Shown here piece after piece: positions 3,001 to 58,885 of a stretch of 64,000 nt of DNA (the stretch's first letter is position 1; each line of letters starts with the position of its first letter). Source of the DNA: Owenia fusiformis (taxonomy: Eukaryota); NCBI GenBank assembly GCA_903813345.2, contig CAIIXF020000001.1, forward strand, positions 24,490,001 to 24,554,000, written 5' to 3'. The notes under the pieces were generated by a model. It did no database searches. It saw nothing but the letters and a program-made list of their open reading frames with translations, and had not been told where the DNA came from. The translations under genes and the position numbers were made by a program.

Positions 3001-3925
3001 AGCGAAGTAACAGTGTATAAACATAAAAGGTACGACTTCAATATTTAGAGAAATCATGTTTTCAGTCAAAAAGCCATAATCATGTTAGTTTTTCAATTAA
3101 ATTGGGTAGATAAGATTCTTTATTAAGCAATACAGAAACTACTCAAATAATAAACACGGGATTCCCAAATTTTACAACATAGTAACATTTCTAAGAGATT
3201 TGGGCGATTTTACACAAGGAGGTTCCAGAACGGACCTGTTATTTCTTCAAATAGCAAAATCGTTAATCCACTTTTTCCTACATCGATCTTGATCTTAACA
3301 AGACAGTTCACGTTTTGTAAAAATAGTTAAGTTGTATGAATAGTAATAAGGGATAAAAGTTCTTACATGAGATTTCATTTTACGTCTATGTCAAATTACC
3401 TCCCTTAATACATTTACCATTTAGTACGTTAGAAACATTGATGTTGCTGTTGACAATAAAAAGAACTGTCTTCCAAGAATTGCTAATGTTTTAATGGGAA
3501 TATTGTAAATGGATCTTTCTTGATTAGATTCTAGCTGTTTTCCCACAATCTTCATTGATCAATTGTAATATTAAAGGAAATCTAACAACATTTCAGTAAT
3601 GGGAATCTGAATATAACACATGAAAAGCACTTACTAACAATTCGAATTAGATTCAAACAACATATACTGACTGTAATAATATGAGAAAGTTAAAATAATG
3701 AATTTTTATTTTTCTTGTAGGAAACTTTACGCAATTATATAAGACGATACACCTTGGGAATACTGGCTGAATTATACATAATAAGGTACGTGTATCTAAA
3801 GCAACAGTTTCTCGCTTCTAAACATTAATCAGCTGTACAAAGTATAACACAAATGTATGGAGTATTATAACAATTTATAAGCAATTAGCGAGACATTCCA
3901 GGATATTACAAAATTAGCAAACACA

Positions 3926-4362
3926 ATGGAATCAATCGACGAAGATACAATTGATGTGAACAACGTTACAAACATGAGCAATCCACCTATAGATGAATAT
4001 GGATACTATTATTACCAGAACATAGACGAACTTCAAAAACCCCAATATCTACGAGAAAAAGATCGTTTCATTCTTACAATTGTTATCTACAGCATTGCGT
4101 TTATCATTGGCATTATTGGCAATTTACTTGTCGTGTTTGCCATGTTGGGCGACAAAAAGGCAAGAAGTGTAACCACACTATTTCTGGTCAGTTTAGCGGT
4201 GTCTGACCTCCTCTTCTTACTTATATGTGTGCCTTATGAAACCTCGAGATATTTCTTGGGACATTGGTCAGGAGGAATGGCACTCTGTAAGATATCTGGC
4301 TTCTGTGAAATGTTATCAGCCGTTGCATCCATCCTCAACCTTACTGCAGTCAGTGTAGAGAG
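3926..4362 (+). CDS. GPCR coding exon 1 (N-terminus, TM1-TM3)
   Basis: MESIDED...GIIGNLLV..FLVSLAVSDLLF..ALCK..LTAVSVER. Upstream acceptor ttttcttgtag ends at 3720; donor AG|GTATGT at 4363 (phase 2, inside the R of ERY). Confidence 0.95.
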
Positions 4363-14750: not shown

Positions 14751-16368
14751 TTTTATGTCACCACCAAAAGTGGTGACATATTGTTATGGTCTCCGTTTTT
14801 TTGCGACGGCGGTTGGCGTCCGGCGGTTGGTGGTTGGCGTCCGGCGGTTGGCGTCCGGCGTCTGTAACAATTTCTTACAACTTCCTATAACATAACAAAT
14901 ACTGTTTAGATTGACTTCAATTTTTTTCTAAATCATCTACATGTTCTCAGAAGTGCAAATCTGACTTTAGATTTGACATTTGACCTTCAATGACCTTCTC
15001 AAGGTCAAAAAGGTCTTTTTTCAACTTGCTTCCCATTGACTAAATTTTTTTTCAAAATCATCTACATGTTCTCAGAAATTCAAATCTGACTTTAGATTTG
15101 ACTTTAGATTTGACATTTGACCTTCAAATCTGACTTTAGATTTGACCTTCAATGACCTTCTCAAGGTCAAAAAGGTCTGTTTTCAACTTGCTTCAAATTG
15201 ACTAAATCTTTTTTTCAAAATCATCTACGTGTTCTCAGAAATTCAAATTTGACTTAAGATTTGACTTAAGATTTGACATTTGACCTTCAATGACCTTCTC
15301 AAGGTCAAAAAAGGTCAAAAAGGTCTGTTTTCAACTTGCTTCAAATTGACTAAAAAAAAATTTCAAAATCATCTACGTGTTCTCAGAAATTCAAATCTGA
15401 CTTTAGATTTGACTTAAGATTTGACATTTGACCTTCAATGACCTTCTCAAAGTCAAAAAAGGTCAAAAAGGTCTTTTTTCAACTTGCTTCAAATTGACTA
15501 AATTTTTTTTTCAAAATCATCTACATGTTATCAGAAATTCAAATTTGACTTTAGATTTGACATTTGACCTTCAATGACCTTCTCAATGTCAAAAAAGGTC
15601 AAAAAGGTATTTTTTCATCTTGCTTCAAATTGACTAAATTTTTTTTTCAAAATCATCTACATGTTCTCAGAAATTCAAATATGACTTAAGATTTGACTTT
15701 AGATTTGACATTTGACCTTCAATGACCTTCCCAAAGTCAAAAAAGGTCAAAAAGGTCTTTTTTCAACTTGCTTCAAATTGACTAATTCTTTTTTTCAAAA
15801 TCATCTACAGGTTCTCAGAAATTCAAATCTGACTTTAGATTTGACATTTCACCTTTAATGACCTTCTCAAGGTCAAAAAAGGTCAAAAAGGTATGTTTTC
15901 AACTTGCTTCAAATTGACCAAATTTTTTTTTCAAAATCATCTACATCTTTTCAGAAGTTCAAATTTGACTTTACAAGTTCTCAGAAGTTCAAATCTGACT
16001 TTAGATTTGACCTTTGACCTTCAAGGTCAAAAAGGTCTTTTTTCAACTTGCTTCAAATTTACTTAATTTTTTTTCAAAATCATCTACATGTTCTCAGAAG
16101 TTCAAATCTGACTTTAGATTTGACATTTGACCTTCAATGACCTTTTCAAGGTCAAAAAGGTCTTTTTTCAACTTGCTTCAAATTTACATAATTTTTTTTT
16201 CAAAATCATCTACATGTTCTCAGAAGTTCAAATCTGACTTTACATTTGACATTTGACCTTCAATGACCTTCTCAATGTCAAAAAAAGTCAAAGAGGTATT
16301 TTTTCAACTTGCTTTAGATTGACCAAATTGTTTTAGGTGGTGACATTTTGTCATGTTAATGCCTTGTT
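14751..16368 (+). mobile_element. Helentron-associated non-autonomous element (HINE/DINE-1-like) with an internal satellite array
   Basis: 5' T-run plus hairpin ATGTCACCAC-caaaa-GTGGTGACAT, (GGCGTCC/GGCGGTT) microsatellite, about 10 tandem 125-160 bp units, 3' subTIR GGTGGTGACAT and terminal ...GCCTTGTT; no TSD. Confidence 0.8.
14925..16330. repeat. Tandem array, about 10 copies of a 125-160 bp unit
   Basis: Unit start AAATCATCTAC near 14931, 15055, 15218, 15366, 15514, 15650, 15798, 15934, 16077 and 16203. Confidence 0.92.
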
Positions 16369-18232: not shown

Positions 18233-18356
18233 GTACATTGTTATCGTCCACCCAATGCGTTCAAGGTCCTGGTGCACAATAGGTAGTGCAAAGAAGATTA
18301 TTGTGATAGTGTGGATTGCGTCATGTCTCCTGTCTGCTCCAGTTGCTTATGTTACT
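18233..18356 (+). CDS. GPCR coding exon 2 (ICL2, TM4)
   Basis: Acceptor ttgcattccag|G completes ERY, then YIVIVHPMRSRSWCT...VWIASCLLSAPVAYVT; donor GTAAGT at 18357 (phase 0). Confidence 0.93.
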
Positions 18357-21890: not shown

Positions 21891-22114
21891 GGATTACGAG
21901 AGGATAAATTCTACAATGGCGACCAGAGACTAATAATGGCAGAATGTATTGACAGCTTGATGAACATGGAACGGTACATCTTTGCATGGTACCAATTGAT
22001 TGTAATGTTTGCTGTGCCGACATATATCATGGTATTTTGTTATGCCAGAGTGATATATGTACTCTGGATCAGTACGAAGGAGCTCGCCAAGATGACACAA
22101 AGGTCTCAACAAAG
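21891..22114 (+). CDS. GPCR coding exon 3 (ECL2, TM5)
   Basis: Acceptor gacctttcag|; GLREDKF...AEC...YQLIVMFAVPTYIMVFCYARVIYVLW...SQQ; donor AG|GTACAA at 22115 (phase 2). Confidence 0.9.
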
Positions 22115-25264: not shown

Positions 25265-25376
25265 AGATAGCAGTCATCAAAGGCTTGTTCAGGCATCCAG
25301 TAACCACAGGGACAGTAGTGTCATTAAAAAGGCTGCCAAAGACCATAGTGCAGATATCCAAAATGCCCGTAAACAG
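25265..25376 (+). CDS. GPCR coding exon 4 (ICL3); not shown in the ORF track
   Basis: Acceptor ttgccattatag|A; reads (R)DSSHQRLVQASSNHRDSSVIKKAAKDHSADIQNARKQ; donor CAG|GTACAC at 25377. Phases 2 and 0 bridge exons 3 and 5 exactly and create the basic RKQ-VIKML entry into TM6. Confidence 0.82.
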
Positions 25377-26975
25377 GTACACTATGTGTTTTTCACACGG
25401 ATCTTTCGCCGTAGCAGCTTGCCTTCGTATGGTACTAGAAGACAGGTATTTGGTTTTTTGTGAAGCACGGCGCAGTACCTGGCAAACAAACACAACCACA
25501 CACCAAATGTATGATATCATAGAATATTATCTCTAGCGAATGATATAGTAAACCCTTATATTTGGATTAATGCTTGTATATGTTCCTGATAGATGGTGTA
25601 TAATATCAATACCATCCATAGTGCATGTCAATAGTACTCATTTGATGTAACAGTATATCATGCATATAATAAAGTCTTCATGGGCTTGCTAGAGAGAGGT
25701 CCATGATCTTTTATTTTCTGTATCTTTAATGTTCTAACATTTAACCGACTTAAACGTGAAATAGTAATGTGAACTCTATGTGTATGTAGACGTTTCATTT
25801 GATACATTGATTCTACTATGAAGTCACTATTGTGTTTGTTTACTATGGTATTGTATCCTTTAGCACACTTTTTTATTAGTTTTCTATCTCACTCTATAAC
25901 TAATGCTTAACAACTACATGTTCTATATGTATTGGCATTTCAATAATCTTTTGTTAATTGCGTTCTGTTGAACTTAACTATAGATGCATTCACCTTTTGC
26001 TCACAGCTATTTGTTGCGAAGAATAGTAGCTAATGTTAATAGTTGCTGAACAAATAGTCGAGGGAAGGGTACGATGCTAATAACACTCACTGCTATTTGT
26101 TTTTATTGTTAATTAAGGACTATCAGTGACGATATGGTGACGTTCGGCATTGTTGATCTTATATTTGGAAACTATGTCATGAAATTCTGTTCTGTGTTAT
26201 ACGGATTAAGAGAGTTAAAACACCATATGATAACCATTATCACGGTCTCTCATTGCATTTTCATGAGTCGACGGAAAGAAACATGCACACCTCGACATAA
26301 TTCTAAATTTACTTTTTCTGATTCTACTTGGGTACATAAAAAGATTTTGCGATCTCAAGTTCTACATCGGGATCTGTTTTGAAATTTGGCGCAAAATATG
26401 TACGTATATTTTAAATTTTATATTCCATCATCAATATGATTTATTCACCAAAATTGCAGGTCTTTGTGTATTCATTCCCTTTTCCATGTTTTATTGTGCT
26501 GATGACATCACATACTAAAAATATAGTAATAGTACCAGTAAGACTTATGGATTTATGTCGATTTACACTATGATGTAGACTCTGGGGAGAAATGTGAATT
26601 TTGGCAGCCATTTTGGTTCAAGCTCTAAGTAAATTTTTGCTTTTTTCCAATGGACAGTGACTGATACGGCTAAACCAAGTAAACTTCTGAAATGGAAAAT
26701 ACAGAAACCTTATTGAATGCATGGTGAGCTCACTTATGTGACTTCTTATTCAGTCATATAAATAGGGGATTGAGGGGCATGCGCTTTAAAACCCAGGAGT
26801 ATCTACCCCTGCGTCCGGAGTATGATGTTAATAGCTTAAATTGCTTCCCAGGGAATTGCATATGTTTAACAATACGTCTGAGTCTAGTATAGTGTCACAA
26901 AGTATATGGTCAACAAATTCGAGTTCTCACAACCCAGTCACAGAACATCATTTTTACACAGTTATTACAAGAGTA

Positions 26976-28585
26976 TATATGGGCATCACTAAAACCATCC
27001 ATGCTTCTAGTTGTATCATCATCCTGAATCCTGCTTATCAGAGTAATTAATTAAGATATCATATTGTATATGGTGTTATTATATTTTATGACATTTGCAT
27101 TGATTAATGGGATATTAATCCTCCTATATCCCACTAGTATGTCGATCAATCGCCCAGATTTTGATAAGGTGACAGCACAATATCGTTAATTCTTGATAAA
27201 TCTTGCACCCATTTCAGATTTACAGAGACCTTGTCGGTTGTCTGTTTATCTTGTTTACCATGTTGTAATGTTGAGATTCAGGTTGGGTGTTGACCTTTGG
27301 TATTGGTACATTCGATTCAATTTTATAAACAGGTCTCAATTGCCTTTGGAATTGACCTCAGAATGCTCGCTGTTTTTTTTTTTATTATTCTCTACAAGTT
27401 TCGATCGAGTAACTTAAATAGTATTACCGTGGTTTAGAAGTGATGATGTCGAACTGATGTTAATCTGAAATAAACGCCATCTCGGCACGATTTCAAATTT
27501 TACTTTGCGCATGTGCGAATCTGAGAGAGCACGTGTTCATGATTGCTCATGTGATTATACCCAGCAATTTGATTGGACATAATATACCGATGGGCGTGAT
27601 TCAAATAAATTATGTTCATGAGTACGAAACAATATAATCGTATTGTCAGATTGTGGAAGCTACTTTATCCCGTACTAGGACCATTTTGAAAAATGGCCGC
27701 CATTTTTACGTGTGTTATTTTACATTTTTTACTATAAACAACTTGGCTAGTGAGCAACCATTTTGAAAATGGTGGCCTTTCTTATGTGTGTTATTTTACG
27801 ATATTTGCTATATATTTTGTTTGTAAAATGCCAGCCATTTCTGTTCGATGGGATTCGCTACGCTTTGGCGTTGCCGTTGTTCTGGTTACTAGTGTACGTG
27901 CAGCCATCTTATATACCCATATATGGGCATCAATAAAACCATCCATGCTTCTAGTTGTATCATCATCCTGAATCCTGCTTATCAGAGTAATTAATTAAGA
28001 TATCATATTGTATATGATGTTATTATATTTTATGACATTTGCATTGATTAATGGGATATTAATCCTCCTATATCCCACTAGTATCTTGATCAATCGCCCA
28101 GATTTTGATAAGGTGACAGGACAATATCGTTTATTCATGATAAATCTTGCACCCATATCAGATTTACAGAGACCTTGTCGGTTGTCTGTTTATCTTGTTT
28201 ACCATGTTGTAATGTTGAGATTCGGGGTGGGTGTTGACCTTTGGTATTGGCTCATTCGATAACCAATTTTATAAACAGGTCTCAATTGCCATTGGAATTG
28301 ACCTCAGAATGCTCGCTGTTGTTTTATGATTATTCTTTACAAGTTTGGATCGAGTAACTTAAATAGTATTTCCGTGGTTTAGAAGTGATGATGTCGAACC
28401 GTGATGTTAATCTGAAATAAACGCCATCTCGGCACGATTTCAAATTTTACTTTGCGCATGTGCGGCTCTGAGAGAGTACGTGTTCATGATTGCTCATGTG
28501 ATTATATCCTGCAATTTGATTGGAAATCATATGCGATGGGCGTGATTCAAATGAATTATGTTCATGAGTACGAAAGAATATATAG
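26976..28585. repeat. Direct duplication of about 660 bp (26976-27636 and 27921-28585)
   Basis: Near-identical blocks starting ATATGGGCATCA.TAAAACCATCC and ending TTCATGAGTACGAAA.AATATA, separated by about 285 bp. Confidence 0.9.
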
Positions 28586-28808: not shown

Positions 28809-29300
28809 TTTTTTTATATGTGGTTACATATTGTTATTGGTTGTCTCCGTTTTTTTGTGGCGGCGGTTGGCGTCTGTAACAAATTCTTAAAACTACCAAT
28901 TACTTACAACAAATACTGTTTCGACTGACTTCAGTTTTTTTTTCAAAATCATCTACACGTTTTCAGGAGTTCAAATCTGACTTTACATTTAAGATTTGTC
29001 CCTCAATGACCTTTCAAGGTCAAAAAGGTTCAGAAACTTCAAAAAGGTATTTCTTTCAACTTGCTTCAAATTTACCATATTTTCAAAAGCCTTTACAGTT
29101 ATCAGAAGTATAGATTCTCAAGGTAAAAAATCTCCTTCAATGACCTTCTCAGGGTCAAAAAAGTTTTTTTAACTTGCTTCAAATTGACCAATTTCTTTTT
29201 TCAAAATCATCTACAGAGTTCTCAGAAATTCAAAACTGATATATCGTGAGCAACTAGGTCGTGACATTTTGTCATGTTAATAATGTGAAATGTCTTGTTT
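28809..29300 (+). mobile_element. Degenerate Helentron-associated element, same family as 14751-16368 (about 2 core units)
   Basis: Shares the GTCTCCGTTTTTT..GGCGGTTGGCGTCTGTAACAA head, the core repeats, and the GTGACATTTTGTCATGTTAAT tail. Confidence 0.75.
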
Positions 29301-29307
29301 ATAATAT

Positions 29308-30563
29308 CACAGGCTGGTATCGAAATATTTGTCCGCTGTGACGGAGCATGCTATTTTTCATAAAAACACTAAGAATACTTCACGATTTATTTTTTAACTC
29401 ATATGTTTCGTTATACCATACAAAATTACTTACTCCATGCAATGGATATATCATTTGCGGGTAAATTTCACTTCTGTTTGAAGTCCAATTACGCTGGGAA
29501 GAAAAGCTATTGAAAATGGCGCCGGAGTATCATACTTCAAAATGTATCATTTCTTGTTTAACTTTCTAATGACACGATACAGTGACACGATAATATTTAC
29601 ACATGGTTTCAGCATAACTATGAAGGTATAAATGAGATGTTGATGTATTTGGTCTTTTTAATTCTTTTATAAAAAATAATGTTTAATTTTTTTGTCCGCT
29701 GTGACGGAGCAGTTGCAAATGTGAACTGTGAAAATGCTCCGTCACAGCGGACAAAAAATATTAACATTATTTTTTGTAAAAAAAATTAAAAAGACCCAAT
29801 GCATTAATATCTCATTAATACATTCAGAGTTATGCTGAAAACATATGTTAATATTATCGTGTCACTATATCATGCCATTAAAAAATTAAAAAAGAAATGG
29901 TACATTTTAGAGTTTGATACTCTGGCGCCGTTTTCAATAGATTTTACTCCTAGCGTTATTGGACTATTGTACAGTTTCTTTTTAAACTTTTTAATGGCAT
30001 GATATAGTGACACAAGAATATTAAAATATGTTTTCAGCATAACTTTGAATGTATTAATGAGATATTAATGCATTGGGTCTTTTTAATTTTTTTATAAAAA
30101 ATTATACTAATATTTTTTGTCCGCTGTGACGGAGCATTTTTACAGTTTACATTTGCAACTGCTCCGTCACAGCGGACAAAAAAATTAAACATTATTTTCT
30201 ATAAAAGAATTAAAAAGACCAAATACATCAACATCTCATTAATACCTTCATAGTAATGCTGAAACCATGTGTAAATATTATCGTGTCACTATATCGTGCC
30301 ATTAGAAAGTTAAACAAGAAATGGTACATTTTGAAGTATGATACTCCAGCGCCATTTTCAATAACTTTTCTTCCCAGCGTAATTGGACTTCAAACAGAAG
30401 TGACAGTTACCCGCAAATGATATATCCATTGCATGGAGTAAGTAATTTTGTATGGTATAACGAAACATATGAGTTAAAAAATAAATCGTGAAGTATTCTT
30501 AGTGTTTTTATGAAAAATAGCATGCTCCGTCACAGCGGACAAATATTTCGATACCAGCCTGTG
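29308..30563. mobile_element. Young foldback DNA transposon with CAC...GTG ends and a 5-bp TSD (Transib-like signature)
   Basis: AATAT|CACAGGCTGGTATCGAAAT ... ATTTCGATACCAGCCTGTG|AATAT; about 580-bp near-identical inverted arms, each internally palindromic. Confidence 0.85.
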
Positions 30564-33254
30564 AATATGAAATTAAAAAAATAATTTTGGATATAAGGCT
30601 ACATCCTTGATTCAAGGGTATTTCAATTTATGCCATGAGCTGGGACAGTGATGCCCGATCTATAAGGATGGTAAGGTTGTATCACTATTGATTATGTCAC
30701 ATATCGAGGAGCATGTAAAACAAGACGCAATACAATCATTTGACAGTTAAGATCTAGACAAGATTAATCGGATGTATACGACAATTATCCTTTTAACGTT
30801 AACGGGAGTTATTGGAAGATCTAATTATAAGCCAATAGAAAACCTGCATATAGCAATAAATAGTAATTAATTGATTGAAAAAATACGTAGGCTTTTTTAG
30901 ATTACATTTAGGTCGTCTATTTAAAATAGAATCAGAGATATAATGGTGTCAAAAGTGCTTACAATCACCGAGTCAACTGTATCACCTCGAATATAAGATT
31001 TCGACGTTATCTGATCAAATGGTCGAGTTCTTGAAGATTTGAATGATGGAGAAATTTATAAAACCATCATCAAAGTATACACATGTTGTATGAATCATTA
31101 GTGATAGACACAGTGATATACCAAAATAATATTATGGCTTGGAGATATATCCGCATTATTTCTATGAAGACAATGTTTCTTTGAATCTTAAGACAAAGTA
31201 TTTCAGATACCTCTAAAGTAATCCTCTAGTTGATGATTTTTAGTAAATCATAAATACAAATTGGAGATACGTGTCTAGAGAAAAGCCAAAATCGTCACTT
31301 TAGTACACGTTCTTTTTTGACGTAAACAAAGCATCAGATTCAGATACATGATACGTACTTGTCAATTTACAAAATTACAAGCAAAGAAACCGGCTTAAAT
31401 GAGAACTAAAGTATTTCTTTGAATGTAATCAGCACACATAAAAAGAAAAAATAAGATGATTTTGAAATATTTTCCGTTTGTATTTGTTGAATTTACACAA
31501 TATGTCACTAGAAAGAAAATTACAGTTTTTAGGTCACCTTGTAATTTTCATTTCAATATTTTGAAAAATGAAAGAAGTTATGAATATCAGACTTAAAACA
31601 TGAATCAAGAAAACGAAATGCCAGTCTTAGAAAAATCCGTTTTTATTAGCTGGAAATAGGGTCAATCTGACCATATCTGTCACTTCAGCAATTCTAAGAT
31701 GTAATTGGAAAGGCATGACGGATCTGCATTTGCCAGTTTGAGGTCATGATTTCATAAGAGTTGACCTACTACATCACAGTGCAATTTTACAACCTGTCTT
31801 AATATAAGGGATAATCCAAATTATTTTGATATGTTATCTTTGATCGATTGATAGATGTTTTTCATGGAATTTGCTTCATTGTTGAATTGATGTTAGTAGC
31901 TACCTATTGCTTCAAATATTTCTTTTGAATTTATTTCTCTTTTTCAACTTTGAAAGTAAAAATAGGCTCGAAAAAGCATTATTGGATTCCGTGGAACACA
32001 AATCATTGTTGGTACATTAGAAATAAAACTAGATTGATGAGATGGCATTTTATATCTTGATGAATCTTCAGGGTTAGACAATCCTATCTCAGATAAGCTT
32101 AAGGATATCATTAATCTGAAAAGAAAGTTGGCATTTTAAGAATAATGTTGTAACGTGGCATATAACAATCGACTATTTGGAACGATTTAATTTGCATAAA
32201 GAATCAGGAATCTGAAACAGGTGAAATGGCACTGTGTAATTTGTTTAAATATAACATGTATCCCAGCTCTATAGCTACTCCTCAATTCAATGTATTGGGT
32301 AAATGAATACATATACTCGATAATCATACAAAATTATTGACCTGGTACTGGTTGTTCTGTATGAATATGTACTTAAATGTTAATTTTCGAATAGAAATCA
32401 ACATTACATTTTTTGTTACAAATATGTAGTTTTTTAAATTTTAAAGATGTTTTATACAAGTGAATACAAAAGTCAGATTTGATTCTTGTATCACACCCGT
32501 TATATAAGTGCATAAGTCATACACTTCATCTCCTACTTCAATATTATGAAATTACTGTATGTGTCCATTTCATTAGCGATGAATGTTATCTTACATTAGC
32601 CGACGAGCCCACAATAGATTTGGTCCTAAAATACGACAAGTCAAGAGAATAATTGTACTGAATGTTCAGCAAAGACATTTGTGATGAGAAGGGTGTCGTT
32701 CTTATTCTCCGAGTTTAACAATTGTTTTTATCTTGAATCAAATAATAATTTGAATGATTCAAATTCTTGAAACGCTCAATAAGTATGCATGACGTATGAA
32801 CAGACAATGCATTAATTTGTCTATTAGTTTCCACATTGATCATCATTTGAAGCTTATTCATGGGGTGAAGTTTTAAGGCCTCAATTCACTCTAATAGCTC
32901 TGCTTATGACTCTGGGAAAAGCTATCGGTTGAAGTAAATGTCGTCTTATGTGACTTGCATTATGTGTCGTTATTACAAAGTTAAGTCGACACAAGATGCA
33001 ATATTTGTTGCGGTATTACTTCTTCTTTAGAGGCATCTTAAGCTTTCTATTGTTGATATATTTTTCGTGATTCAAAGCATGCATAAAATGTCATGGTTAT
33101 ATAATATGTAATAGTACCATTATGGATAATATGAAAAAAGTGTAATATGTTGTATGGAAACACGCCACTTAACTAATTTATTGTATTTTATGAATTTGAT
33201 AAGGTGAATATATTTTCCCAATGGATCCATCTAAATCATTTGTTTTACTTATAG

Positions 33255-33392
33255 GTGATCAAGATGCTCATCACAATCATCCTGGTGTTCTTGATTTGTT
33301 GGGGCCCTAAGCTTATCCTGAGAATCATCAGTCGATATCCCTTTAAAGACCATATGAACAGTTATTGGCGGCAGGATTTTGTTACTTTGAAG
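33255..33392 (+). CDS. GPCR coding exon 5 (TM6, ECL3); not shown in the ORF track
   Basis: Acceptor ttttacttatag|; VIKMLITIILVFLICWGPKLILRIISRYPFKDHMNSYWRQDFVTLK; donor AAG|GTAAAC at 33393 (phase 0). Confidence 0.93.
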
Positions 33393-35362: not shown

Positions 35363-35960
35363 TTACTTCCTGCGAAAGCTATAATGATGTGGATTTTGAT
35401 ACAGCAGCCTTACCACTGCGCACTGGACAGCTGAATAATAGTGGCCTTTAAAACACGAATTAATGTGATCAGCGGCTTACTTTTGGTTTCTAACTGTGTC
35501 ATACATCATTATCATCCATCCGTGCAAGTATTGGAGTGCTGAAGTACTTTTCCGATCAAGACTAAATTGTTCATCGAGTGAATGTTTGCGACCCAATTTT
35601 AATATGGCGGTTTGCTAGGTAGTGAAATTCGCAACGAACGAAATGAATCATGAGATTTAGGTAGGTTCGGACAGCGTCCGGAGATTTACGAAAATGTCCG
35701 TGCAAAAAACGCCATATTGAAATTGGGCAGAAAAACATTCACTCGACTAACAATTACACATCTTGATCGAAAAGGAAGTACTTCAGCGCTCCAATAATTG
35801 CAAGGATGGATTATACTGATGTAGGACACAGTTAGAGAACACAAGTAAGCCGCTGATCACATTACTTCGTGTTTTAAAGGTCACTATTATTCAGCTGCCC
35901 ATTGCTCCGTCGGAGAGCCATAAGTTTCAAAATCGAACATGGCTTTCGAAGTGAGTAAAA
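35363..35960. mobile_element. Palindromic MITE-like element just upstream of exon 6a
   Basis: 35428-35615 is the reverse complement of 35705-35897 (e.g. cagctgaataatagtggcctttaaaacacgaa..aatgtgatcagcggcttac). Confidence 0.7.
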
Positions 35961-36098: not shown

Positions 36099-36347
36099 GT
36101 GGCTTTTAACTTTTTACCTTACATCCAGAGTGCTGCCAACCCAGTCATATATGGAGTCATGTCTAGCAATTTCAGAAAGAGCTTATTCATTGCACTTAAT
36201 GTTCATTGTTTGGGGAGACCTCAGGTTGCGTTGAACAGCTCCATACGTCCTGCATATAGCATGGAGAGAACTCAACACAATAGACCAGACTCAAATAAAC
36301 GTGACATACAATTGAATGCAAATATAGATGACACGCTACTTCAATAG
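36099..36347 (+). CDS. GPCR alternative terminal exon 6a (TM7, helix 8, C-tail A)
   Basis: Acceptor ttattcttttgtag|, phase 0; VAFNFLPYIQSAANPVIYGVMSSNFRKS...DDTLLQ*. Confidence 0.88.
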   Translation: MAFNFLPYIQSAANPVIYGVMSSNFRKSLFIALNVHCLGRPQVALNSSIRPAYSMERTQHNRPDSNKRDIQLNANIDDTLLQ

Positions 36348-39288
36348 ACTGCAGGCACCATTTTGATTCGTTGGCTTATGTTCAATGGTCAAAAGCTACT
36401 AATCAACTATCTACAGTATATTTTGAGGATTCTTGTCCCATCCCTGTCATAAAACGTATTTGTATAAAGCTTTGTGTAAATTGTACCATATGGTATAAAT
36501 GATCAATATTGACAGTTCGACACCAGAATTTATTTTTATTTTAATTGAAACATACTGTAGACTTTTGACTAGCAAGCTGAGCTTCTGTAACATAGATAAT
36601 ATCATGCATTCACCCTCATGATATTACCTCTTATACCCGTTTTATCATCTGCATAATGATCTGTTATAATGTGTACATTTATCATTGCACAACACAGTTT
36701 ATGTAATGCACTCTTTGCAGTTGTATCATATATGTTGGAAAATCTTTCCAATTATTTGATTTTACTATATACTTGTGTTGTACATTCCTGGTAGATTTCT
36801 GGTAGATTTTAAACATATTTAGGATGTCCCAGGGCAAATCTAATCATGTATGTTGACCTATTTTTAAGTTTGGGAGTAAATAATCATACGATATGATCAA
36901 TAATACCATAAATTGAAGTTCCCTTATTTTGGAAGATTCAGATACAGATTCAGTCTGGTACTTGGCATGATGCATCAAAGATAAATTTATTTACCTATAA
37001 ATAACGTAACATTAATTTGCAACATATCAAAATGAAAATATATGTTTTGAGTTGGTGAATTTACCCGTATAAAAAGATAAAGCCTGCAAATAACATTTGC
37101 AATATTGGCAGATAAAGAACTGATTAATGGATTCGTTTGCAAAACAGGCAAATTCCAATTCCTCCTAGAAGTGTAATAGTTTCATATTTGTATATCTGAA
37201 TCATTTCAATTCAATGGGGAGAGAAAATGAATAAGACAAATTGGATCTGATATCTACTTTTATCGAAATATGGGTCACTGAATATTAAAGGCCACGCTCC
37301 GAGTCGTTTACGTCATTGTAAGCAATATATGCACATAATTTTTCTTTGATACATCATTTACTGTTCTCAGCTATTGATATCTACATAAATCAACTTTGCT
37401 TGTCCATCTAAAATGGTCGCATATTTCTTGAAGTTTAATCCACCTCATAAAATTTCAGAATGGCCCATATTTTTTCATATCGATGAAACACTTTGAACTC
37501 ATTGCTAAAAAGGCCATTTTAAATTTCTTTTTTTTAAATGTAGATCTCTTTGCAAAATATTCATTTTATTTATTTTTTATCACACCACTGGTGAAATATG
37601 GTCGTTATGATGGTGACGTGCTCGTGATCTTGGCATTCCGCTTTTGTTATCGAGATTTCAGAAAGCGCATTGTCAGATATTTTCAAAATATTGAAATGGC
37701 TATCACTTGTAATGTTGCCTACGCTCCATTATTATCAATTCCAGTATTGCAGGGCCGGGGTTTGCTCTAGATCATTTCCGGTTCAACATTAATTGTATTA
37801 ACTAAACATTTTATCCAAAATTTGAAGATACAACCGCATGACCCAAGTACCAATGGTGCTGTTTTATTCATTTCCTCTTGGCAATTGTAATCAGTTTATG
37901 CATTGTCACAAAATATTGGTCAAAGAATGCTAAAAGACTTAAAAATGGTAAAGCAATTATTAGATTGTCTTTTCAAATTAAATATAAGATCTCTTTCATC
38001 CAATACAATTCATATCTATTAATAAAAGTTAAGTTAGTTATCCTAATTCGTGGAACAGGGGAGTCAATAATTGTTTATATACGGTGAAGGATGAGATTCA
38101 GAAAAAATTCCAGGGAATGGGATGACTACCTTTACAACAAACACAATTTCTGCCTTTCAACCAGTTTTTCTTTGACTTAATCGTCGAACTTTAGATTCCC
38201 AAATTTTCTAAAATGATGGATTGATGTTATTATTGTAAAATCGTAAGATTTAATATTCATATTCAAGAAATTTAAGATTTTCTAAAACAGTTTTTGGGCA
38301 TATCAAAAATGGAGATGGAACAATTCAATTTCAGGTTAAATTCAAATTTCAGGTTAAAATTGTGATAATATTAAGTCCTAGTCACATGATGTAATTCAAA
38401 CAACTTGATTGGCTAAGATGATGTATAGGCCAAAGATAAATTGTATTTTTGAAATTTTTATGGAGTTTGGACGTTTTGACACTGAATAGCAGGCTGTTGA
38501 GAGGAAATAAAGATAAGGGAGTATCACAGAAAGAAAGATTTAAATAGGGAAAATCTGTGAAAATGTTTTCAAAAAGACACGTAGGACATTATTATTCAGA
38601 TAGGACGACGTGATATTGTAACCATTCTCTTTGTGATTCTTTAATCTTTAGCTGTAATTACTATGTTAAAGACCAAGTGTTGTCTTTCTACTTGTGTAAG
38701 CTTTGATTTAAAGACCTTACTTACTCCTCACGTTTGCCCTTGTTTCTAGAGAGTGTTGGAATAGATGTATAACAGTCCTTTGTAATCGATTAATCAGGAA
38801 AAACTTCTAAGAAAGATTAGCATTTTCTGAAAAAATTATCAAGTAAGTGACATAAAGATACGATATTATGATTAATTCATTATTAGCTTATATTCTAGTA
38901 CATGGTGAATGGTATATCACTGCTCAATCAAACTTGAAAAACAACAAGTATAATTGCTTTATTTATATTTCTTAGTTTAGCATATAAGCGCCAATGTGAG
39001 ATTGTACCATTATGTACCATACATAACAATATACCGGACATTATATTTCTATTTCCATATCCCCCAATCTATAAGTAGACTGCACTGAGAAAATTCAACT
39101 AATCAATCCAAAAAGATAGGATCAATCTTTGGAATAATTGTACAGCCGAGTCCCCGGTCATAAATCAAATGCCACATGCCTTTCGGGAATGACGATACAA
39201 GCAACTAAAATAATTAAAAAAAAGAACTACGATTGACAAATGTGGTATGACACCTGATAATATTGGTAACTGGTAAACCCAACCTTAA

Positions 39289-39764
39289 AGGCCCGCTCTG
39301 CGTATTTTTAATGTTTTGGGCCAAAATAAAGACTTTTATATGAATTCTATGGAATGTCAAATGTATTGATAAGAACCCTATCTTTGATTTGACACCAACA
39401 ACAGCTCAAAACGGACCACATCAAAGCTTGCAATAATTAATTTTCGATCTGTCAAGCTTTATATATCAAGTTTTTATCAATGTCATTGAAAGATGGCGAA
39501 GTTGTTTGTACTACATTATACATTCATTTTCATAGAAGTGTCGCCATCTTTTAAATCAAACGTAATTAAAAACATGCATTTGTTAAGCATGTGCATGCAT
39601 GTATAATGATCTCTGATTCAAATGTTTTTTCTCTGTGACTAATTTTTTTCTTGGTTCAATATTAAAGCAAATCAAACTTTGTGTCAGATTTGAGCGAGTG
39701 TGTGAGTAATATGTTTCAATGATAATATTTTTCTTCTTTCTTCTAAATTAAGTATAGCGGGCCT
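39289..39764. mobile_element. Kolobok-type non-autonomous transposon
   Basis: TTAA|AGGCCCGCT ... AGCGGGCCT|TTAA; inserted into a short ..AAGTCAACTCAACC.. tandem repeat (39270-39860). Confidence 0.8.
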
Positions 39765-40034
39765 TTAAGTCAACTCAACCCAGGTTATCTCAACCCTTAG
39801 TCAACTCAACCAAAGTTATCTTAACCCTAAGTCAATTCAACCCAAAGCCAACTCAACCCCCAAATTTAATAATTCTTTCAATATATAGGAAGACTTCAAT
39901 GAAATGTAATAGTTCCCCTAAATTGGCCATAAAGTTGTTTTAAGATATTGTGCTAATACATACTTTATTATATCAAAAAGCATTTAAATGATTAATTCAT
40001 TTGAGAAAAACATTTGATATGTTGGTTTTTGCAG

Positions 40035-40310
40035 GTTGCAATGAACCTGTTACCCTACATACAGAGTGCAACCAATCCAATTGTATATGGGTTTATGTCC
40101 TCTAGTTTCCGACGGAGTATGATGACAGCCTGTCGTAGTAAAGATAGCATTAGGAGCGTAACAAGGAGTGGGGGTGATATTGAGATGGGGTCAAAGAGTA
40201 TAAATGGGACAACACAGACAGGTTGGCACACCTCCTCTCGTTTCACCCCTTCACCAAGTCGGTCCAAGGAGTTTGGATGCAAAGATGTTGAGAGAGACTG
40301 CGCCCAATAA
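40035..40310 (+). CDS. GPCR alternative terminal exon 6b (TM7, helix 8, C-tail B)
   Basis: Acceptor gtttttgcag|, phase 0; VAMNLLPYIQSATNPIVYGFMSSSFRRS...ERDCAQ*. Confidence 0.9.
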   Translation, partial: VAMNLLPYIQSATNPIVYGFMSSSFRRSMMTACRSKDSIRSVTRSGGDIEMGSKSINGTTQTGWHTSSRFTPSPSRSKEFGCKDVERDCAQ

Positions 40311-40581: not shown

Positions 40582-41487
40582 TGACGTGCACGGACCTGGG
40601 GACAATTCGGGAAATACGGGCTGATCTCAGCTTTGAGCGTTAATCTCTGCCTTATTTAAAAGCTAACGATGTGTTTTATATATCATTTTGAAGTATTTTT
40701 TATTCGCATTTCAGTGAAATTATTTTTCCTTCAAAATGTTGATGAGATCAAACATATTTTTAAAGTTAAATATATCCCGACATCGTCAAATACGCTGTAA
40801 GACGTAACACTTTACGCTTACAGGGCTCGTTGAAATTCGGATAACTTTTGAAATAATGATCAAAATTCCGCTAAAATTTCCAATGTTTTCAATGGAACAT
40901 GTTCATTTATGACGTCACAATTGCTTTACGGCTACAGTTCAAATTATCTTTTATGAACGCTTTTACATTTTTTTAAATTGTGTAAGGTTTTGAAGGCGAA
41001 TGGGACGAGCAATAAGTTTTCCTTCATTTAACCTTCTAATTTAAGTCTGATTGGAAAGAAAAATTAACTGCACAATATTGTCATGGCGAAATTTACAAAA
41101 CAATAACCAGGGTGTTTATTTTGCAAATAATATTAAAATAAGAGCTGGTTTTCGAGACTTTCGAGAAAAATGTGACGCATCGATTTTTTACCACAAATTC
41201 CATACATATCAATTTTTACCAACGCCCGAAGTGGATTTCTTGACCGTTTTTTCAAAATTCAAAAACATTTTAGAAATATTGTCCTCGAGATCTTGCTACC
41301 CTGTAGTTTTGGCATGATTAGATGAGGATAAAGTATTTTATTTTTAGGTTGACTAAACTTGACAAAAATGTGACGCTTGTCGTTTTAGACGTTGTAAGGC
41401 TGTTTGCGCCCTATGTTGCTCATTATTTTGTCTTGGTTTTTTGACGTCATAATGTTACGCTAATTATCCCCAGTTTCGTGCGACGTG
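40582..41487. mobile_element. Nested TIR element (TA-flanked)
   Basis: Imperfect TIR ACGT-GCACGGACCTGGGGACAATT / AATTATCCCCAGTTTCGTGCGACGTG; absent from the 19904-20628 copy. Confidence 0.7.
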
Positions 41488-43786: not shown

Positions 43787-45146
43787 TTAGGACTTCCTTG
43801 GAATAACGAGTCCCATCAGATTCTTTGTTTGATACCCAGCATAAAATGTGTAAAAAAAATCAATAAGATATATGCAGAGGCAAGTATTATGATGTAATTT
43901 ACATGAAAAGCTAGTCACCTATTATGAATTGATTTATGTTGCCTTCATAAGTTGAACGATTTAGGTTCATCATAACAAGACGGTATAGCTTTATATTCCA
44001 ATTACTACAAATCAATTTATATTTATGTATATTTAATTAAGTATTCATTATATTTATTATTTGTTTCATAGATTTGCTAATTAGTTTTTTTGTATGTCAC
44101 CATGACATTGGTTTGCAACACTGATCATATAGAGCATTTTCCCTTAAATTGCGATGGCATTAATGTCAAATCTGTCCCAATGATTCAATGGAATGTCGAA
44201 AACAAGAGACGTGTGCCAATATTAAACGAGCCAATCTAGATATCAAGTTGCCATTTTTCTCTTTTTCGTTGATGGCATCAGGTGAAATTTCATTAAAGGC
44301 TATAGTTGATCAAAAGTACGTCTTGATACTCATCACATCCTATTTCTATAACAGACAGTAGTCTCTGGATGAAATTGTTATGGTATACCATGCAATCAAA
44401 AGTCCAGTAACTAAATATAGAGATGCGCTGTTGTCCAGTAATAAACCCAAAATAATGGCCGTCAAAACAAAATAATGGAAATGGGAGATATTTAAGTGCC
44501 CATGTTACTTGAAAATTGACAGAATCAAGATCATTGAACCATTTACATTAAATTGAGAACATGTAATAGATGTCAGAGATATATTAGCCATAGATATATG
44601 ATGTAATATATCACTGTGATTAAAAGTTTAAAATTGACTTTTTCCTAAAACGTTTCATGTTTTTGTATTATTAGGGGATTTTATAAAAACAAAAGTTCAT
44701 GAATATTATGATTTTCAATGAGAATATAACTAGTTTTCTAGTGGACGTGAAAATAACATTATAAATAGTAAATACAAAATATAATAGGTTTGCTAGATAT
44801 CCTGAAACTACAGAATTCACTGTCTTCATGTAATGTATTTCTCAATCATGGAGGGTATTGTAATTTATAGAATGTTGTTTAAGCTTAAACATGTTTGACA
44901 ATATATTGCTTAATCACACAGTGGTGGAACTCTTCAAAATATAGCAGAGGTACGATTTTTCTTTTTCCAAACGTGTGTTTTACAAACGTGTGTCCGCATA
45001 ATGTGTTTGAGAAAAGCTAATAGTTTGAGGCACCAGAATGATGAAAATAATGTTTCACTACTTTTACGCAAACGGCGTAAACGGAACGGTTAAACGTACA
45101 TATGTTAACCGTTTTAACGTGTCGTTTACGTAACAAAAGTGAGTTA

Positions 45147-45692
45147 TTATGTCACCACCAAGAAAAAAACGGTCAGAAATGTACTTGCTTCAAATTTTAC
45201 AAGTTATCAGAAGTTCAAATCTGACTTTAGTTTTGACCTTTATTGACATTCTCAAAAAAGGTCTTTTTCAACTTGCTTCAAATTTCAAAATCATCTACAA
45301 GTTCTCTAGAAAGTTCAAATCATTCTCAAGATCAAAAAAGATTTGACCTTCTAGCTTATTATAAATTCTTAAACTTTCAATAGCTTAACAAATACTGTTT
45401 GGACTGATTTTTTAAAATCATTTACAATTTTCCAGAAGTTCAAATCTGACTTCATATTTAAGATTTGACCTTTCATGGTCAAAAAAGGTTAAAAAAGGTA
45501 TTTTTCAACTTCTCAATTTTAAATTTGAGAGTTCACCTTCAATGACCTTCACGGGGTCAAAATTGGTATTTTTTCAACTTGCTTCAAGTTGACCAATTTA
45601 TTTTTTCAAAATCATCTATACGTTCTTAACACGTTCGTAATATTGTGAGCAACTTGGTGGTGACATTTTGTCATGTTAATTAATGCCTTGTT
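45147..45692 (+). mobile_element. Degenerate Helentron-associated element, same family as 14751-16368
   Basis: TTATGTCACCACCA head, degenerate core repeats, GGTGGTGACATTTTGTCATGTTAAT..GCCTTGTT tail. Confidence 0.75.
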
Positions 45693-53764: not shown

Positions 53765-54526
53765 CTAGCTGTGTTCCTCGCATCGTCGATGTGAAGTAGT
53801 GGGCGGGGTGTCGTCCAGCTTTTTACTACAGGCTAATCTCATAATACACAATATAACAAAGACAACTCCAATGAATCCACCTACAATGATGGCAGCTATG
53901 ATGTATATGCCCCAATCACGTCCAGTTCTGATGGTAATACAACGTCTATCAAGCGAGCTAAAATCTTCGACTATCATGTGACTAACTTCTCCATTATATG
54001 CGACACACAAACGGTACTCTCCCAAGCTCTGGAGACCGTCTATCATCACGTTTGATTTACAGCCTATCTCTACTTGTTGTATTGGGATGGAAGCATTTGT
54101 TATATTCTCAAAACTGAACATTTGCAACACTAAAACCGTGTAGTTGGAGAGGCAGTGTGGGTCAATAAAGGATACTTTCACATTATAATATATACTTTCA
54201 GTGTCTATTTCGGTGGTTACTTGTAACATATCAACGCTCGTACAAGTGTCGCCGTAAAGGTATTCATAAAAGCACTGACATCTATTTAAAGACGCGTTAT
54301 TATTCTTGTCAATTGTACAATTTGTTCTTGTCCCAAGACAGCTGGTATCACAGTTAGATGCAACTTGTTGAATGCATACCAATAACATTGCAAATGTGAA
54401 TAATGACTGCAACGACCACGAGGGGCCTCTAAAAAATGTATTGCACAGACCACCATTTCCTTTATTTTGTGTTGGATATATTCCAATTGATAGTTCACAC
54501 CTGATCTCGTCTATTGCCTTTGACAT
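53765..54526 (-). CDS. Type I single-pass membrane protein with EGF-like and FN3-like domains (about 253 aa)
   Basis: Acceptor tacactttcag|GAGATG on the minus strand places the ATG at 54526. Hydrophobic signal-like segment (LFTFAMLLVCIQQVAS), 6-Cys EGF-like motif CDTSC-x6-C-x12-CQC-x9-C, FN3-like segment (Y..LV...GL..LGEYRLCV...C.TIRT), TM WGIYIIAAIIVGGFIGVVFVILCIM, short cytosolic tail. Confidence 0.8.
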   Translation of the reverse strand: MSKAIDEIRCELSIGIYPTQNKGNGGLCNTFFRGPSWSLQSLFTFAMLLVCIQQVASNCDTSCLGTRTNCTIDKNNNASLNRCQCFYEYLYGDTCTSVDMLQVTTEIDTESIYYNVKVSFIDPHCLSNYTVLVLQMFSFENITNASIPIQQVEIGCKSNVMIDGLQSLGEYRLCVAYNGEVSHMIVEDFSSLDRRCITIRTGRDWGIYIIAAIIVGGFIGVVFVILCIMRLACSKKLDDTPPTTSHRRCEEHS

Positions 54527-54881
54527 CTCCTGAAAGTGTAATCCGTAGAATGACATGTAATGGCATGTGACATCACTTGGTAAAAATGTTAAAATAATAT
54601 AGAATAAAATGTTTAATATACTGCAAAATAAGTTGCATTAAGAGAGAATCATAGAGAATATTTTTTCCTGTATAATAGGCAGTTATTTTTTGTATTATAG
54701 CGGAAAAAAAATATAATACGTATTTTGAAGAATTATTTTTGATTTAATAATATTATTTGTGTATTATTTAAAGGGAACAACATATAATACCATATAATAT
54801 AGAATAATATTTTTGTCAGGAGCAAATAATATGTTGGCATCTGCAATCAAAAACCGATTATACGCGTTTATTTTCGAGCCG

Positions 54882-57574: not shown

Positions 57575-58885
57575 TTGGGAAACCTTTATAACTCCACACT
57601 TTCTGCTGAAGTTAAAGTCTACAAGGCGTGTCAAACTTTACGCTCGAGTTTTGCCAGTTTAGTAGGTGTTGGTGTACACCCCCGTGGACTAAACCCCTTA
57701 ACAGGAGCTAAACTCGCTCGATGCATTTGTATTCCCACAGCCTTATATGGTGCCGAGCTTTGGTATGAAATGACAAAAACACAAACCCTCCAGCTTGAAA
57801 AAGGTCTCAGATTCATCGCTAAAACGCTGCAAGACCAATCCAAATGGACAAGAACAGACTTAACCTTAGGAATGCTCGGTTTAAACAACATTGAATCAAT
57901 GATAGATAGTAAAAAATTACTCTTTTTAGGACGCCTTATACATCTGAAGCACACTCATTTGGCGAAACGTGTGTTTCTTACCAGACTACATTTAAATGAG
58001 ACGTCCCCTTCCCAGAAGGGGTTTATTCCTGATATTCACAGAATATTAAATAAATACAGTCTAGATTCATTACGCGAATACTTAGTTAGTGGGTATTTTC
58101 CGCCACAAAGAATTTGGAAAAACATTGTAAAACATACAATAAATTCAGTACAAAACTCCGAATGGCAAGATAGAACTTCTAATGATGTTAGTTTTAGTCG
58201 ACTGAGACAAATACAAGATTCAATAGAACCGTGTCCACTTTGGAAACACTCAAAGGTCGTCCCTGGTCTGCTAAAGTTTGCCACTGTAGCCTCAAAACTG
58301 TTAACAATCCCATTAAGTAATGATGAAAACCTGTGTGAGCACTGTGGCGTGCTAACTCCGGATTCGGTTTCACATGGACTGTTGGATTGTTCCAAAACTG
58401 AAGATGCTCGCAATGAAATGCTACACAACTTAAGCGATGTCTTGAACCTTAACAGAATTGGGCTTAAGATAGAGTCGTTAAAAAAGGATTTTCGAGAAAA
58501 CCCCTTTTGTGTGTCAGTGAAAGGCCTCTCCAGCTTATATTTTACAGACAATTCAAAAGTCTTGGCAATTCTCCTACCTTTCTTGTGTACTGTTGTAGAA
58601 CTTTTAAATATTGATCTTACCACTCCATTTTAGAGTGATGCAAATATTTTTTAGAAATGTGACTTTCCACCACTGTTTGTGATTTTTTAATATATACTTT
58701 ATTACTTGTCATTGACATTTTAGATGTGGATTGTTCTTGTTGTTTTGTGTGTTTTTTGTTATTGTCTTAAATTTTTAGATGTGTTTTTATGTCGTTGTTT
58801 TTGGTTAATTTTCACTGTTGTGTTAAATGTTTAAATTTTTGTACTCCATGCTAAATGGGAAATAAAGAGATATAATATAATAATC
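57575..58885 (+). mobile_element. 5'-truncated non-LTR retrotransposon (LINE): post-RT region of the ORF, 3' UTR and tail
   Basis: Open frame 57575-58633 with CIPTALYGAELW..LE..F.AK..Q..T..D..LG...IE..ID.KKL.FLG.L (thumb/post-RT region of LINE ORF2) and a C-terminal CxxC..H..C zinc knuckle. GT-rich UTR, AATAAA at about 58861, (TATAA)-type tail; the frame begins abruptly after a TAA. Confidence 0.82.

What the first reader, a model, noticed from the sequence alone, without database searches (positions are those of the whole stretch)
36099..40310. One GPCR, two duplicated terminal exons: swappable TM7 + helix 8 + C-tail modules
Seen: two phase-0 exons with good acceptors both continue exon 5 in frame and both carry PYIQSAxNPxxYGxMSSxFRxS. 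20 of the first 28 residues are identical, yet 11 of those 20 identical residues use different codons, and both frames stay open to a stop. I found no TM1-6 exons between them, so they are not a second gene. Inference: an old exon duplication with both copies under purifying selection, giving mutually exclusive isoforms (427 and 436 aa) chosen by alternative splicing/polyadenylation. Unlike ordinary tail variants spliced after TM7, the whole of TM7 is exchanged, so both the ligand pocket and the signalling tail can differ.
Basis: partly seen in the sequence, partly recalled or inferred. Interest (0 to 1): 0.85.

Follow-up and report, generated by a model that had tools for sequence, protein, structure and literature searches.

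The report
Receptor gene with two last exons
An orphan peptide-receptor gene of a marine worm carries two old, well-preserved copies of its last coding exon, which probably give two receptor forms that differ at their inner end; the arrangement is a known kind and RNA proof is still missing here.

Summary
A class-A peptide GPCR gene on the + strand (exons at 3926, 18233, 21891, 25265 and 33255) is followed by two homologous terminal exons, 7a (36099-36347) and 7b (40035-40310). Both have AG acceptors in phase with exon 5. The products are 427 and 436 aa.

Synonymous sites are saturated (pS 0.80) while pN is 0.17. Against 14 outgroup TM7 blocks, 7a has changed about as little as 7b, and it keeps all 7 columns that are invariant in the family. 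The duplication is therefore old, and 7a has been under purifying selection for most of its history.

Both public gene models (labelled Owenia fusiformis) use 7b, and no database protein carries 7a. None of 36 related loci shows a second TM7 exon, but their flanks are short.

The positions usually taken as pocket-lining are identical in the two exons. The real differences lie in helix 8 and the tail.

Homologous alternative 3' exons in GPCR genes are already known (insect ETHR-A/B, OAMB). If real, this is a new member of a known kind, of moderate interest.

The parts
3721..3789 (+). Upstream exon used by the public models (N-terminal extension)
   Evidence: The first 23 residues of P0008 map here at 100% identity. 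P0023 carries the same stretch.
3926..4362 (+). Coding exon 1: N-terminus and TM1 to TM3, up to the ER of ERY
   Evidence: 7tm_1 match at E 5.8e-24. The GT donor and the only join giving ERYIVIVHP were found.
18233..18356 (+). Coding exon 2: end of TM3, second inner loop, TM4
   Evidence: AG/GT bounds. 100% identical to P0008. 7tm_1 match at E 1.3e-8 on the enclosing ORF.
21891..22114 (+). Coding exon 3: second outer loop and TM5
   Evidence: AG/GT bounds. 100% identical to P0008.
25265..25376 (+). Coding exon 4: third inner loop
   Evidence: AG/GT bounds. Matches P0008.
33255..33392 (+). Coding exon 5: TM6 (CWGP), third outer loop and the outermost turn of TM7. Phase 0 at both ends.
   Evidence: 7tm_1 match at E 3.6e-4.
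36099..36347 (+). Terminal exon 7a (unannotated): TM7 from about 7.36, NPVIY, helix 8, a Cys at residue 37 and a 45-residue tail poor in Ser/Thr; stop codon TAG
   Evidence: 60.2 bits to the TM7 profile.
37284..37289 (+). First poly(A)-signal-like hexamer (ATTAAA) after 7a. The first AATAAA is at 38021.
   Evidence: Pattern scan only. Use not shown.
40035..40310 (+). Terminal exon 7b (used by both public models): TM7, NPIVY, helix 8, a Cys at residue 33, and a Ser/Thr-rich tail with the family motif D.E..S...NGT; stop codon TAA
   Evidence: 63.4 bits to the TM7 profile.
41132..41137 (+). First poly(A)-signal-like hexamer (ATTAAA) after 7b
   Evidence: Pattern scan only.

Best explanation
This is one gene for an orphan rhodopsin-class peptide receptor whose last coding exon was duplicated in tandem long ago.

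The donor of exon 5 (33392|gt) can join either acceptor in phase 0. Joining 36099 and ending the transcript in the 3.7 kb before 7b gives a 427-aa receptor. Skipping 7a and joining 40035 gives the annotated 436-aa form. Because each copy ends in a stop codon and has no need of a donor, the two are mutually exclusive by construction (alternative last exons).

The isoforms share TM1-6 and the outer turn of TM7. They differ at 8 of the first 28 residues of the exon, all conservative. They also differ in the second half of helix 8, in the place of the likely palmitoylated Cys (residue 37 in 7a, 33 in 7b), and in the whole tail.

7b keeps the family's acidic-Ser-NGT tail motif and has 29% Ser+Thr. 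7a lacks the motif and has 12%. I therefore expect the isoforms to differ in desensitisation, arrestin binding, trafficking or coupling rather than in ligand recognition.

Shown: the duplication, its age, the constraint on both copies, and the intact splice and frame features. Inferred: that 7a is spliced and translated today, which poly(A) site it uses, and the functional difference.
For: - Homology and frame.
- Age and constraint: pS 0.80-0.83 (saturated) against pN 0.17-0.21. Gene conversion would have kept synonymous sites alike.
- Rates: against 14 outgroup TM7 blocks, changes in 7a alone number 1-4 and in 7b alone 2-4 over the first 28 residues, with no test below p 0.3. 7a keeps all 7 columns invariant among the outgroups, while 7b departs at one.
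- Branch dN is 0.10-0.16 for 7a and 0.04-0.12 for 7b, while every pS is 0.71-1.09. A copy that had been neutral since the duplication would be near saturation at replacement sites too.
- Open frame: 82 codons, where only 0.8% of intron positions stay open that long. The 50-codon tail has a 3% chance.
- Composition: 7a has GC 0.40, like exons 1-5 (0.40-0.45), against 0.31-0.34 for the flanking introns.
- Splice features: an AG acceptor with a pyrimidine tract, in phase 0.
- No second gene: there are no other TM1-6 exons in the window.
- The intron position before TM7 is shared with 36 of 80 related loci.
- Precedent for the mechanism: ETHR-A/B and OAMB.
Against: - No RNA junction was seen, because the test could not be run.
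- Both public models of the gene, P0008 and P0023, use 7b, although they differ at the 5' end. That annotation did record isoforms, yet not this one.
- No protein carrying 7a was found in the word-indexed search of 5.8 billion proteins, in either the longer or the near length class. None of the 14 hits in the representative search is 7a-like.
- The maximum-likelihood branch of 7a is 0.6 against 0.25 for 7b over 34 columns.
- The 7a tail lacks the family motif. Its third-position GC is 0.34, which is intron-like and is reached by only 7% of 50-codon windows of the core CDS.
- The first poly(A)-like hexamer lies 937 nt after the 7a stop.
- 0 of 36 related loci with the same intron has a second TM7 exon, although only 9 of them have 4 kb or more on one side.
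Confidence: 0.6

Rival explanations
1. 7a is a relic. It was a working alternative exon for a long time, but it is no longer spliced, or only at noise level, and has not yet had time to decay.
For: It is absent from both public models and from all protein searches. Its branch is longer. Its tail has lost the family motif and has intron-like third positions. No relative shows the second exon.
Against: The frame is open for 82 codons and the acceptor is intact. All 7 invariant family columns are kept. Branch dN for 7a exceeds that for 7b by only 0.003-0.11 across the eight outgroups, so any neutral period must be short relative to the age of the duplication.
Confidence: 0.27
2. 7a is used, but not to make a second receptor. 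It would be included as an internal exon with a donor further downstream. Its stop codon would then make the mRNA a target for decay, so it would act as a regulated poison exon.
For: None directly. It is only that no poly(A) hexamer lies within 937 nt of the stop.
Against: A poison exon needs a stop codon, not a conserved TM7, NPxxY, helix 8 and Cys. The amino-acid constraint is not explained by this reading.
Confidence: 0.05
3. 7a is the last exon of another gene or transcript: either the surviving end of a lost tandem paralogue, or an exon driven by a promoter within the intron.
For: Relatives do occur as tandem paralogues; three Liolophura homologues lie on one contig.
Against: There are no TM1-6 exons anywhere else in the 64 kb window, and none between exon 5 and 7b. 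A lone TM7 exon would have no function to conserve. Its phase and orientation fit exon 5.
Confidence: 0.05
4. Assembly artefact: the two copies are haplotypes or a collapsed or expanded repeat.
For: None.
Against: The copies are 67% identical over 134 nt of DNA, have saturated synonymous sites and have unrelated tails. Haplotypes would be nearly identical.
Confidence: 0.01

Closest known systems
Insect ecdysis-triggering-hormone receptor gene, isoforms ETHR-A and ETHR-B (PMC8175484; passages read)
   Same: One GPCR gene has shared 5' exons and two homologous, mutually alternative 3' exons. Each includes transmembrane helices, helix 8 and the tail. The paper says both are conserved across arthropods and that the isoforms differ in sensitivity and in the neurons that express them.
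   Different: In ETHR the exchanged part runs from the end of TM4 to the C-terminus, about 60% of the protein, so the pocket really differs. Here only TM7 from about 7.36 onward is exchanged. Both ETHR isoforms are proven in RNA and in assays, whereas 7a is not. ETHR is arthropod, whereas this gene is labelled annelid, and the duplication was not seen in 36 related loci.
Drosophila octopamine receptor OAMB, isoforms K3 and AS (PMC2650798; passages read)
   Same: [quoted passage not shown] They differ from the third cytoplasmic loop onward and show different second-messenger coupling in cells.
   Different: The exchanged part is larger (loop 3, TM6, TM7 and the tail). OAMB is an amine receptor, not a peptide receptor. 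Whether its two exons are homologous duplicates was not checked here.
C-terminal tail splice variants of peptide GPCRs, such as PBAN receptor isoforms (PMC10217269 and PMC6488165; search listing only)
   Same: By my reading, the main expected consequence here is also a different tail, and with it different regulation.
   Different: As I recall, those variants splice after TM7, so TM7 and helix 8 are shared. Here TM7 and helix 8 are duplicated and have diverged.
Platynereis dumerilii 'Orphan G-protein coupled receptor 23' (P0004) and Liolophura 'allatostatin-A receptor-like' (P0001)
   Same: These are the nearest named proteins. Identity is 200 of 367 aligned residues (P0004) and 203 of 381 (P0001) to the 7b isoform. 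The TM7 block and the tail motif match 7b.
   Different: Only single protein sequences were available, without gene structure, so it is unknown whether they have a second terminal exon. The names are automatic and no ligand is known from any call here.

Membership tests
Rhodopsin-class (class A) GPCR, Pfam 7tm_1 | Significant match to PF00001 | tested here: met
   Exon 1 scores E 5.8e-24 at 85.4 bits against a cut-off of 30.5. The TM4, TM5 and TM6 exons match in the expected profile order. Scanned alone, 7a and 7b gave no family.
Rhodopsin-class (class A) GPCR, Pfam 7tm_1 | Hallmark motifs: E/DRY after TM3, CWxP in TM6, NPxxY in TM7, and F of helix 8 seven residues after that Y | tested here: met
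   ERY is formed across the exon 1/2 join. CWGP is in exon 5. NPVIY (7a) and NPIVY (7b) are each followed by F at +7. The motif definitions are recalled, established knowledge.
Rhodopsin-class (class A) GPCR, Pfam 7tm_1 | Seven hydrophobic helices | tested here: inconclusive
   A simple hydropathy scan finds TM1-6. TM7 stays under the threshold in both isoforms.
Homologous alternative 3' exons of one GPCR gene (ETHR-A/B type) | Two homologous exons in tandem, on the same strand, inside one gene, with no second set of upstream exons | tested here: met
Homologous alternative 3' exons of one GPCR gene (ETHR-A/B type) | Both acceptors compatible in phase with the shared upstream donor, and both frames open to a stop | tested here: met
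Homologous alternative 3' exons of one GPCR gene (ETHR-A/B type) | Both copies under purifying selection | tested here: met
   pS 0.80 against pN 0.17. Relative-rate counts are equal within error for all 14 outgroups. Branch dN is 0.10-0.16 and 0.04-0.12. The numbers are small (28-34 codons).
Homologous alternative 3' exons of one GPCR gene (ETHR-A/B type) | Both junctions present in mRNA | not testable with these tools
Only use of 7b is implied, by the public models.
Homologous alternative 3' exons of one GPCR gene (ETHR-A/B type) | Both exon types conserved in related species | tested here: not met
   0 of 36 related loci with the same intron position has a second TM7 exon; the best second hit scores 11 bits against 59 or more for true exons. 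This is a weak test: only 9 of 36 loci have 4 kb or more on one side, only 1 on both, and none is a close relative.
Allatostatin-A / galanin receptor family (the names sources give the nearest homologues) | Orthology to a receptor with a known ligand | tested here: inconclusive
   The nearest solved chains to P0004 are cholecystokinin receptor A (E 2.7e-43), then the QRFP receptor and galanin receptors 1 and 2 (E about 1e-37 to 1e-36). No tree with reference receptors was built, so the receptor is treated as orphan.

The most novel reading that the evidence does not exclude
An annelid orphan peptide receptor uses an ancient duplicated exon, private to its lineage, to swap TM7, helix 8 and the tail as one module. 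This would give one phospho-rich, motif-bearing isoform and one phospho-poor isoform with a longer helix 8 and different coupling or desensitisation. It would be a spiralian counterpart of arthropod ETHR-A/B that arose independently, and it is missing from the current annotation.
Probability: 0.5. Interest if true: 0.45.

Novelty: new member of a known kind. Interest (0 to 1): 0.35.

Why it matters
If 7a is used, the public annotation of this gene misses a receptor isoform.

The gene would also be a compact natural experiment. The two forms would have the same pocket and the same TM1-6, but two versions of TM7's inner half, helix 8, the palmitoylation site and the tail, kept apart for a very long time. 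That would help to ask which intracellular features set coupling and desensitisation in an invertebrate peptide receptor.

It would also show that exon-duplication isoforms of GPCRs, well studied in insects, arise independently in annelids. It does not open a new principle.

Tried and rejected
- RNA evidence: no RNA holder was listed among the indexed runs. No junction data exist here.
- Whole genome: none is held for this window.
- Protein searches with 7a: nothing among longer proteins or near-length proteins. The full representative scan gave 14 hits at E 1e-3 or better. I fetched 11 of them. Most are TM7-exon fragments or TM6-TM7 pieces of related receptors, P0010 is an unrelated repeat protein, and none is 7a-like.
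- Related loci: 80 were fetched from metagenome contigs, and none has two TM7 exons.
- Tree of 34-column TM7 blocks: unresolved. A 7a+7b clade is neither supported nor rejected (p-AU 0.32), so the duplication could not be dated against the species splits.
- Intron similarity upstream of the two acceptors: marginal and unstable with window length. I make no claim of conserved splicing elements.
- Coding signals in the 7a tail alone (third-position GC, purine at codon position 1): weak.
- Literature: searches found no paper on this gene and none on a TM7-only exon swap in an annelid receptor. Paper supplements were not opened.
- Pfam on four other long ORFs of the window: nothing.
Full report
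**What is there**

The window is AT-rich eukaryotic DNA with GC 0.31-0.40. On the + strand lies a rhodopsin-class GPCR gene. Exon 1 carries TM1-3 (7tm_1, E 5.8e-24). Further exons carry TM4, TM5, the third inner loop and TM6.

With GT-AG bounds at 3926-4362, 18233-18356, 21891-22114, 25265-25376 and 33255-33392, the shared part is 345 codons. Two terminal exons follow: 7a at 36099-36347 and 7b at 40035-40310. Each sits behind an AG with a pyrimidine tract, and each is in phase 0 with the exon 5 donor.

**Identity of the gene**

A protein search with exon 1 returned P0008. Its source names it an unnamed protein product, partial, of Owenia fusiformis. It matches the window's exons at 100% and ends with 7b. 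Its cluster also holds the full-length model P0023 (480 aa), which also ends with 7b and starts 44 residues further upstream.

The nearest other named proteins are a Platynereis 'Orphan GPCR 23' and Liolophura 'allatostatin-A receptor-like' or 'galanin receptor type 1-like' proteins. The nearest solved structures to the Platynereis protein are cholecystokinin receptor A, the QRFP receptor and the galanin receptors. I treat the receptor as an orphan peptide receptor.

- 20 of the first 28 residues are identical, and 11 of those 20 use different codons.
- The exons find each other at E 1.4e-11.
- A profile of TM7 blocks finds only these two places in the window, at 60.2 and 63.4 bits; the next best is 11.4 bits.
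- No other copy of the TM3-4, TM5 or TM6 exons exists in the window.
- None of 73 scanned ORFs between exon 5 and 7b matches 7tm_1. Three ORFs were left out of that scan.

**Is 7a constrained?**

Synonymous sites between the copies are saturated (pS 0.80 over 28 codons, 0.83 over 32), while pN is 0.17-0.21. This rules out haplotypes, recent duplication and gene conversion.

I took 14 outgroup TM7 blocks from the proteins fetched so far. Residues changed only in 7a number 1-4, and only in 7b 2-4, over the first 28 positions. No comparison falls below p 0.3. 7a keeps all 7 columns that are invariant among the outgroups, whereas 7b departs at one.

With eight outgroup loci at the codon level, branch dN is 0.10-0.16 for 7a and 0.04-0.12 for 7b, with every pS between 0.71 and 1.09. 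A copy that had drifted neutrally since the duplication would be close to saturation at replacement sites as well. So 7a was translated and selected for most of its history.

The maximum-likelihood tree is unresolved. It gives 7a the longer branch (0.6 against 0.25), and a 7a+7b clade is not rejected (p-AU 0.32).

Other signs fit an exon:
- Its GC is 0.40, against 0.31-0.34 in the flanking introns.
- The frame is open for 82 codons, where 0.8% of intron positions manage that.

The tail alone gives weak signals.

**What differs between the copies**

Numbering from NPxxY and the helix 8 Phe is my derivation from established convention. On that numbering the exon starts near 7.36. The residues at 7.39, 7.42 and 7.43 are the same in both copies. 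The TM7 changes are F/M, F/L, A/T, V/I, I/V and V/F.

The clear differences begin in the second half of helix 8. The first Cys is at residue 37 in 7a and 33 in 7b. The tails are unrelated in most of their length. 7b shares the motif D.E..S...NGT with orthologue fragments, and 7a does not. Ser+Thr make up 29% of the 7b tail and 12% of the 7a tail.

I therefore expect a difference in regulation and coupling, not in the ligand pocket.

**Relatives**

A scan of metagenome contigs gave 80 loci with related TM7 exons. Of these, 36 share the phase-0 intron just before the block. None has a second TM7 exon. All 45 top-ranked loci that one search printed, out of the 80, score higher to 7b than to 7a, except two tied rows (L018, L022) and two intronless ones of another subfamily (L017, L020).

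The test is weak. Only 9 of the 36 loci have 4 kb or more on one side, and many are near-duplicates of each other. As far as it goes, it points to a duplication private to the window's lineage.

**What could not be done**

No protein with 7a is in the searched collections. So the use of 7a today is inferred, not shown, and the fact that two public models both choose 7b counts against strong expression.

**Comparison with what is known**

Homologous alternative 3' exons in a GPCR gene are established for insect ETHR-A/B, where the exchanged part runs from the end of TM4 to the C-terminus (PMC8175484, passages). Alternative last exons that change everything from the third loop onward are known for OAMB (PMC2650798, passages).

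The present case exchanges less. It would be a new member of that kind, in an annelid. My searches found no report of it.

**Verdict**

The old duplication and the constraint on both copies are supported. Alternative use of 7a is probable (0.6) but unproven. The claim of a changed pocket and of a departure from known cases is overstated. Interest is moderate to low.

Noticed in passing
window 3721-3789 and 4247-4375: The partial public model P0008 joins an upstream exon (3721-3789) directly to the middle of exon 1, skipping TM1-2. The full model P0023 reads on into exon 1 and adds 44 residues before the Met at 3926. The true start codon is therefore open.
   Followed up: partly
window 35415-35549 and 35776-35910: An inverted repeat with 135-nt arms, 89% complementary and 226 nt apart, lies in the intron just upstream of 7a. 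It looks like a small foldback or MITE-type insertion.
   Followed up: no
window 29307-30564 and 26975-28532: Intron 4 holds a large near-palindrome (485-nt arms, 96% complementary) and a two-copy direct repeat with a period of about 945 nt (93-97% identity). These are probably transposon remains.
   Followed up: no
window 15277-16066; also 28880-29172 and 45143-45592: Repeated short ORFs with nearly the same peptide (HLTFNDLLKVKKGQKGLFSTCFKLTK...) recur in tandem and at three places in the window. This is a dispersed repeat family.
   Followed up: no
window 57575-58633 (+) and 53765-54637 (-): Two long ORFs (352 and 290 aa) lie downstream of the receptor gene. Neither matches any Pfam family at E 0.01.
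   Followed up: partly
loci L002, L007, L009-L012; proteins P0012, P0013, P0017, P0020: Orthologue tails in other, unnamed invertebrate contigs end in a shared -[ST]-x-[AV]-[DE]-[VIF] C-terminus and carry the D.E..S...NGT motif. Both window tails lack that C-terminal ending.
   Followed up: partly
loci L024-L029, L035-L047: A subgroup of related TM7 exons ends right after helix 8 in a run of 4-7 Cys codons and then a stop or an exon end. This is an unusual poly-Cys stretch at the expected palmitoylation site.
   Followed up: no
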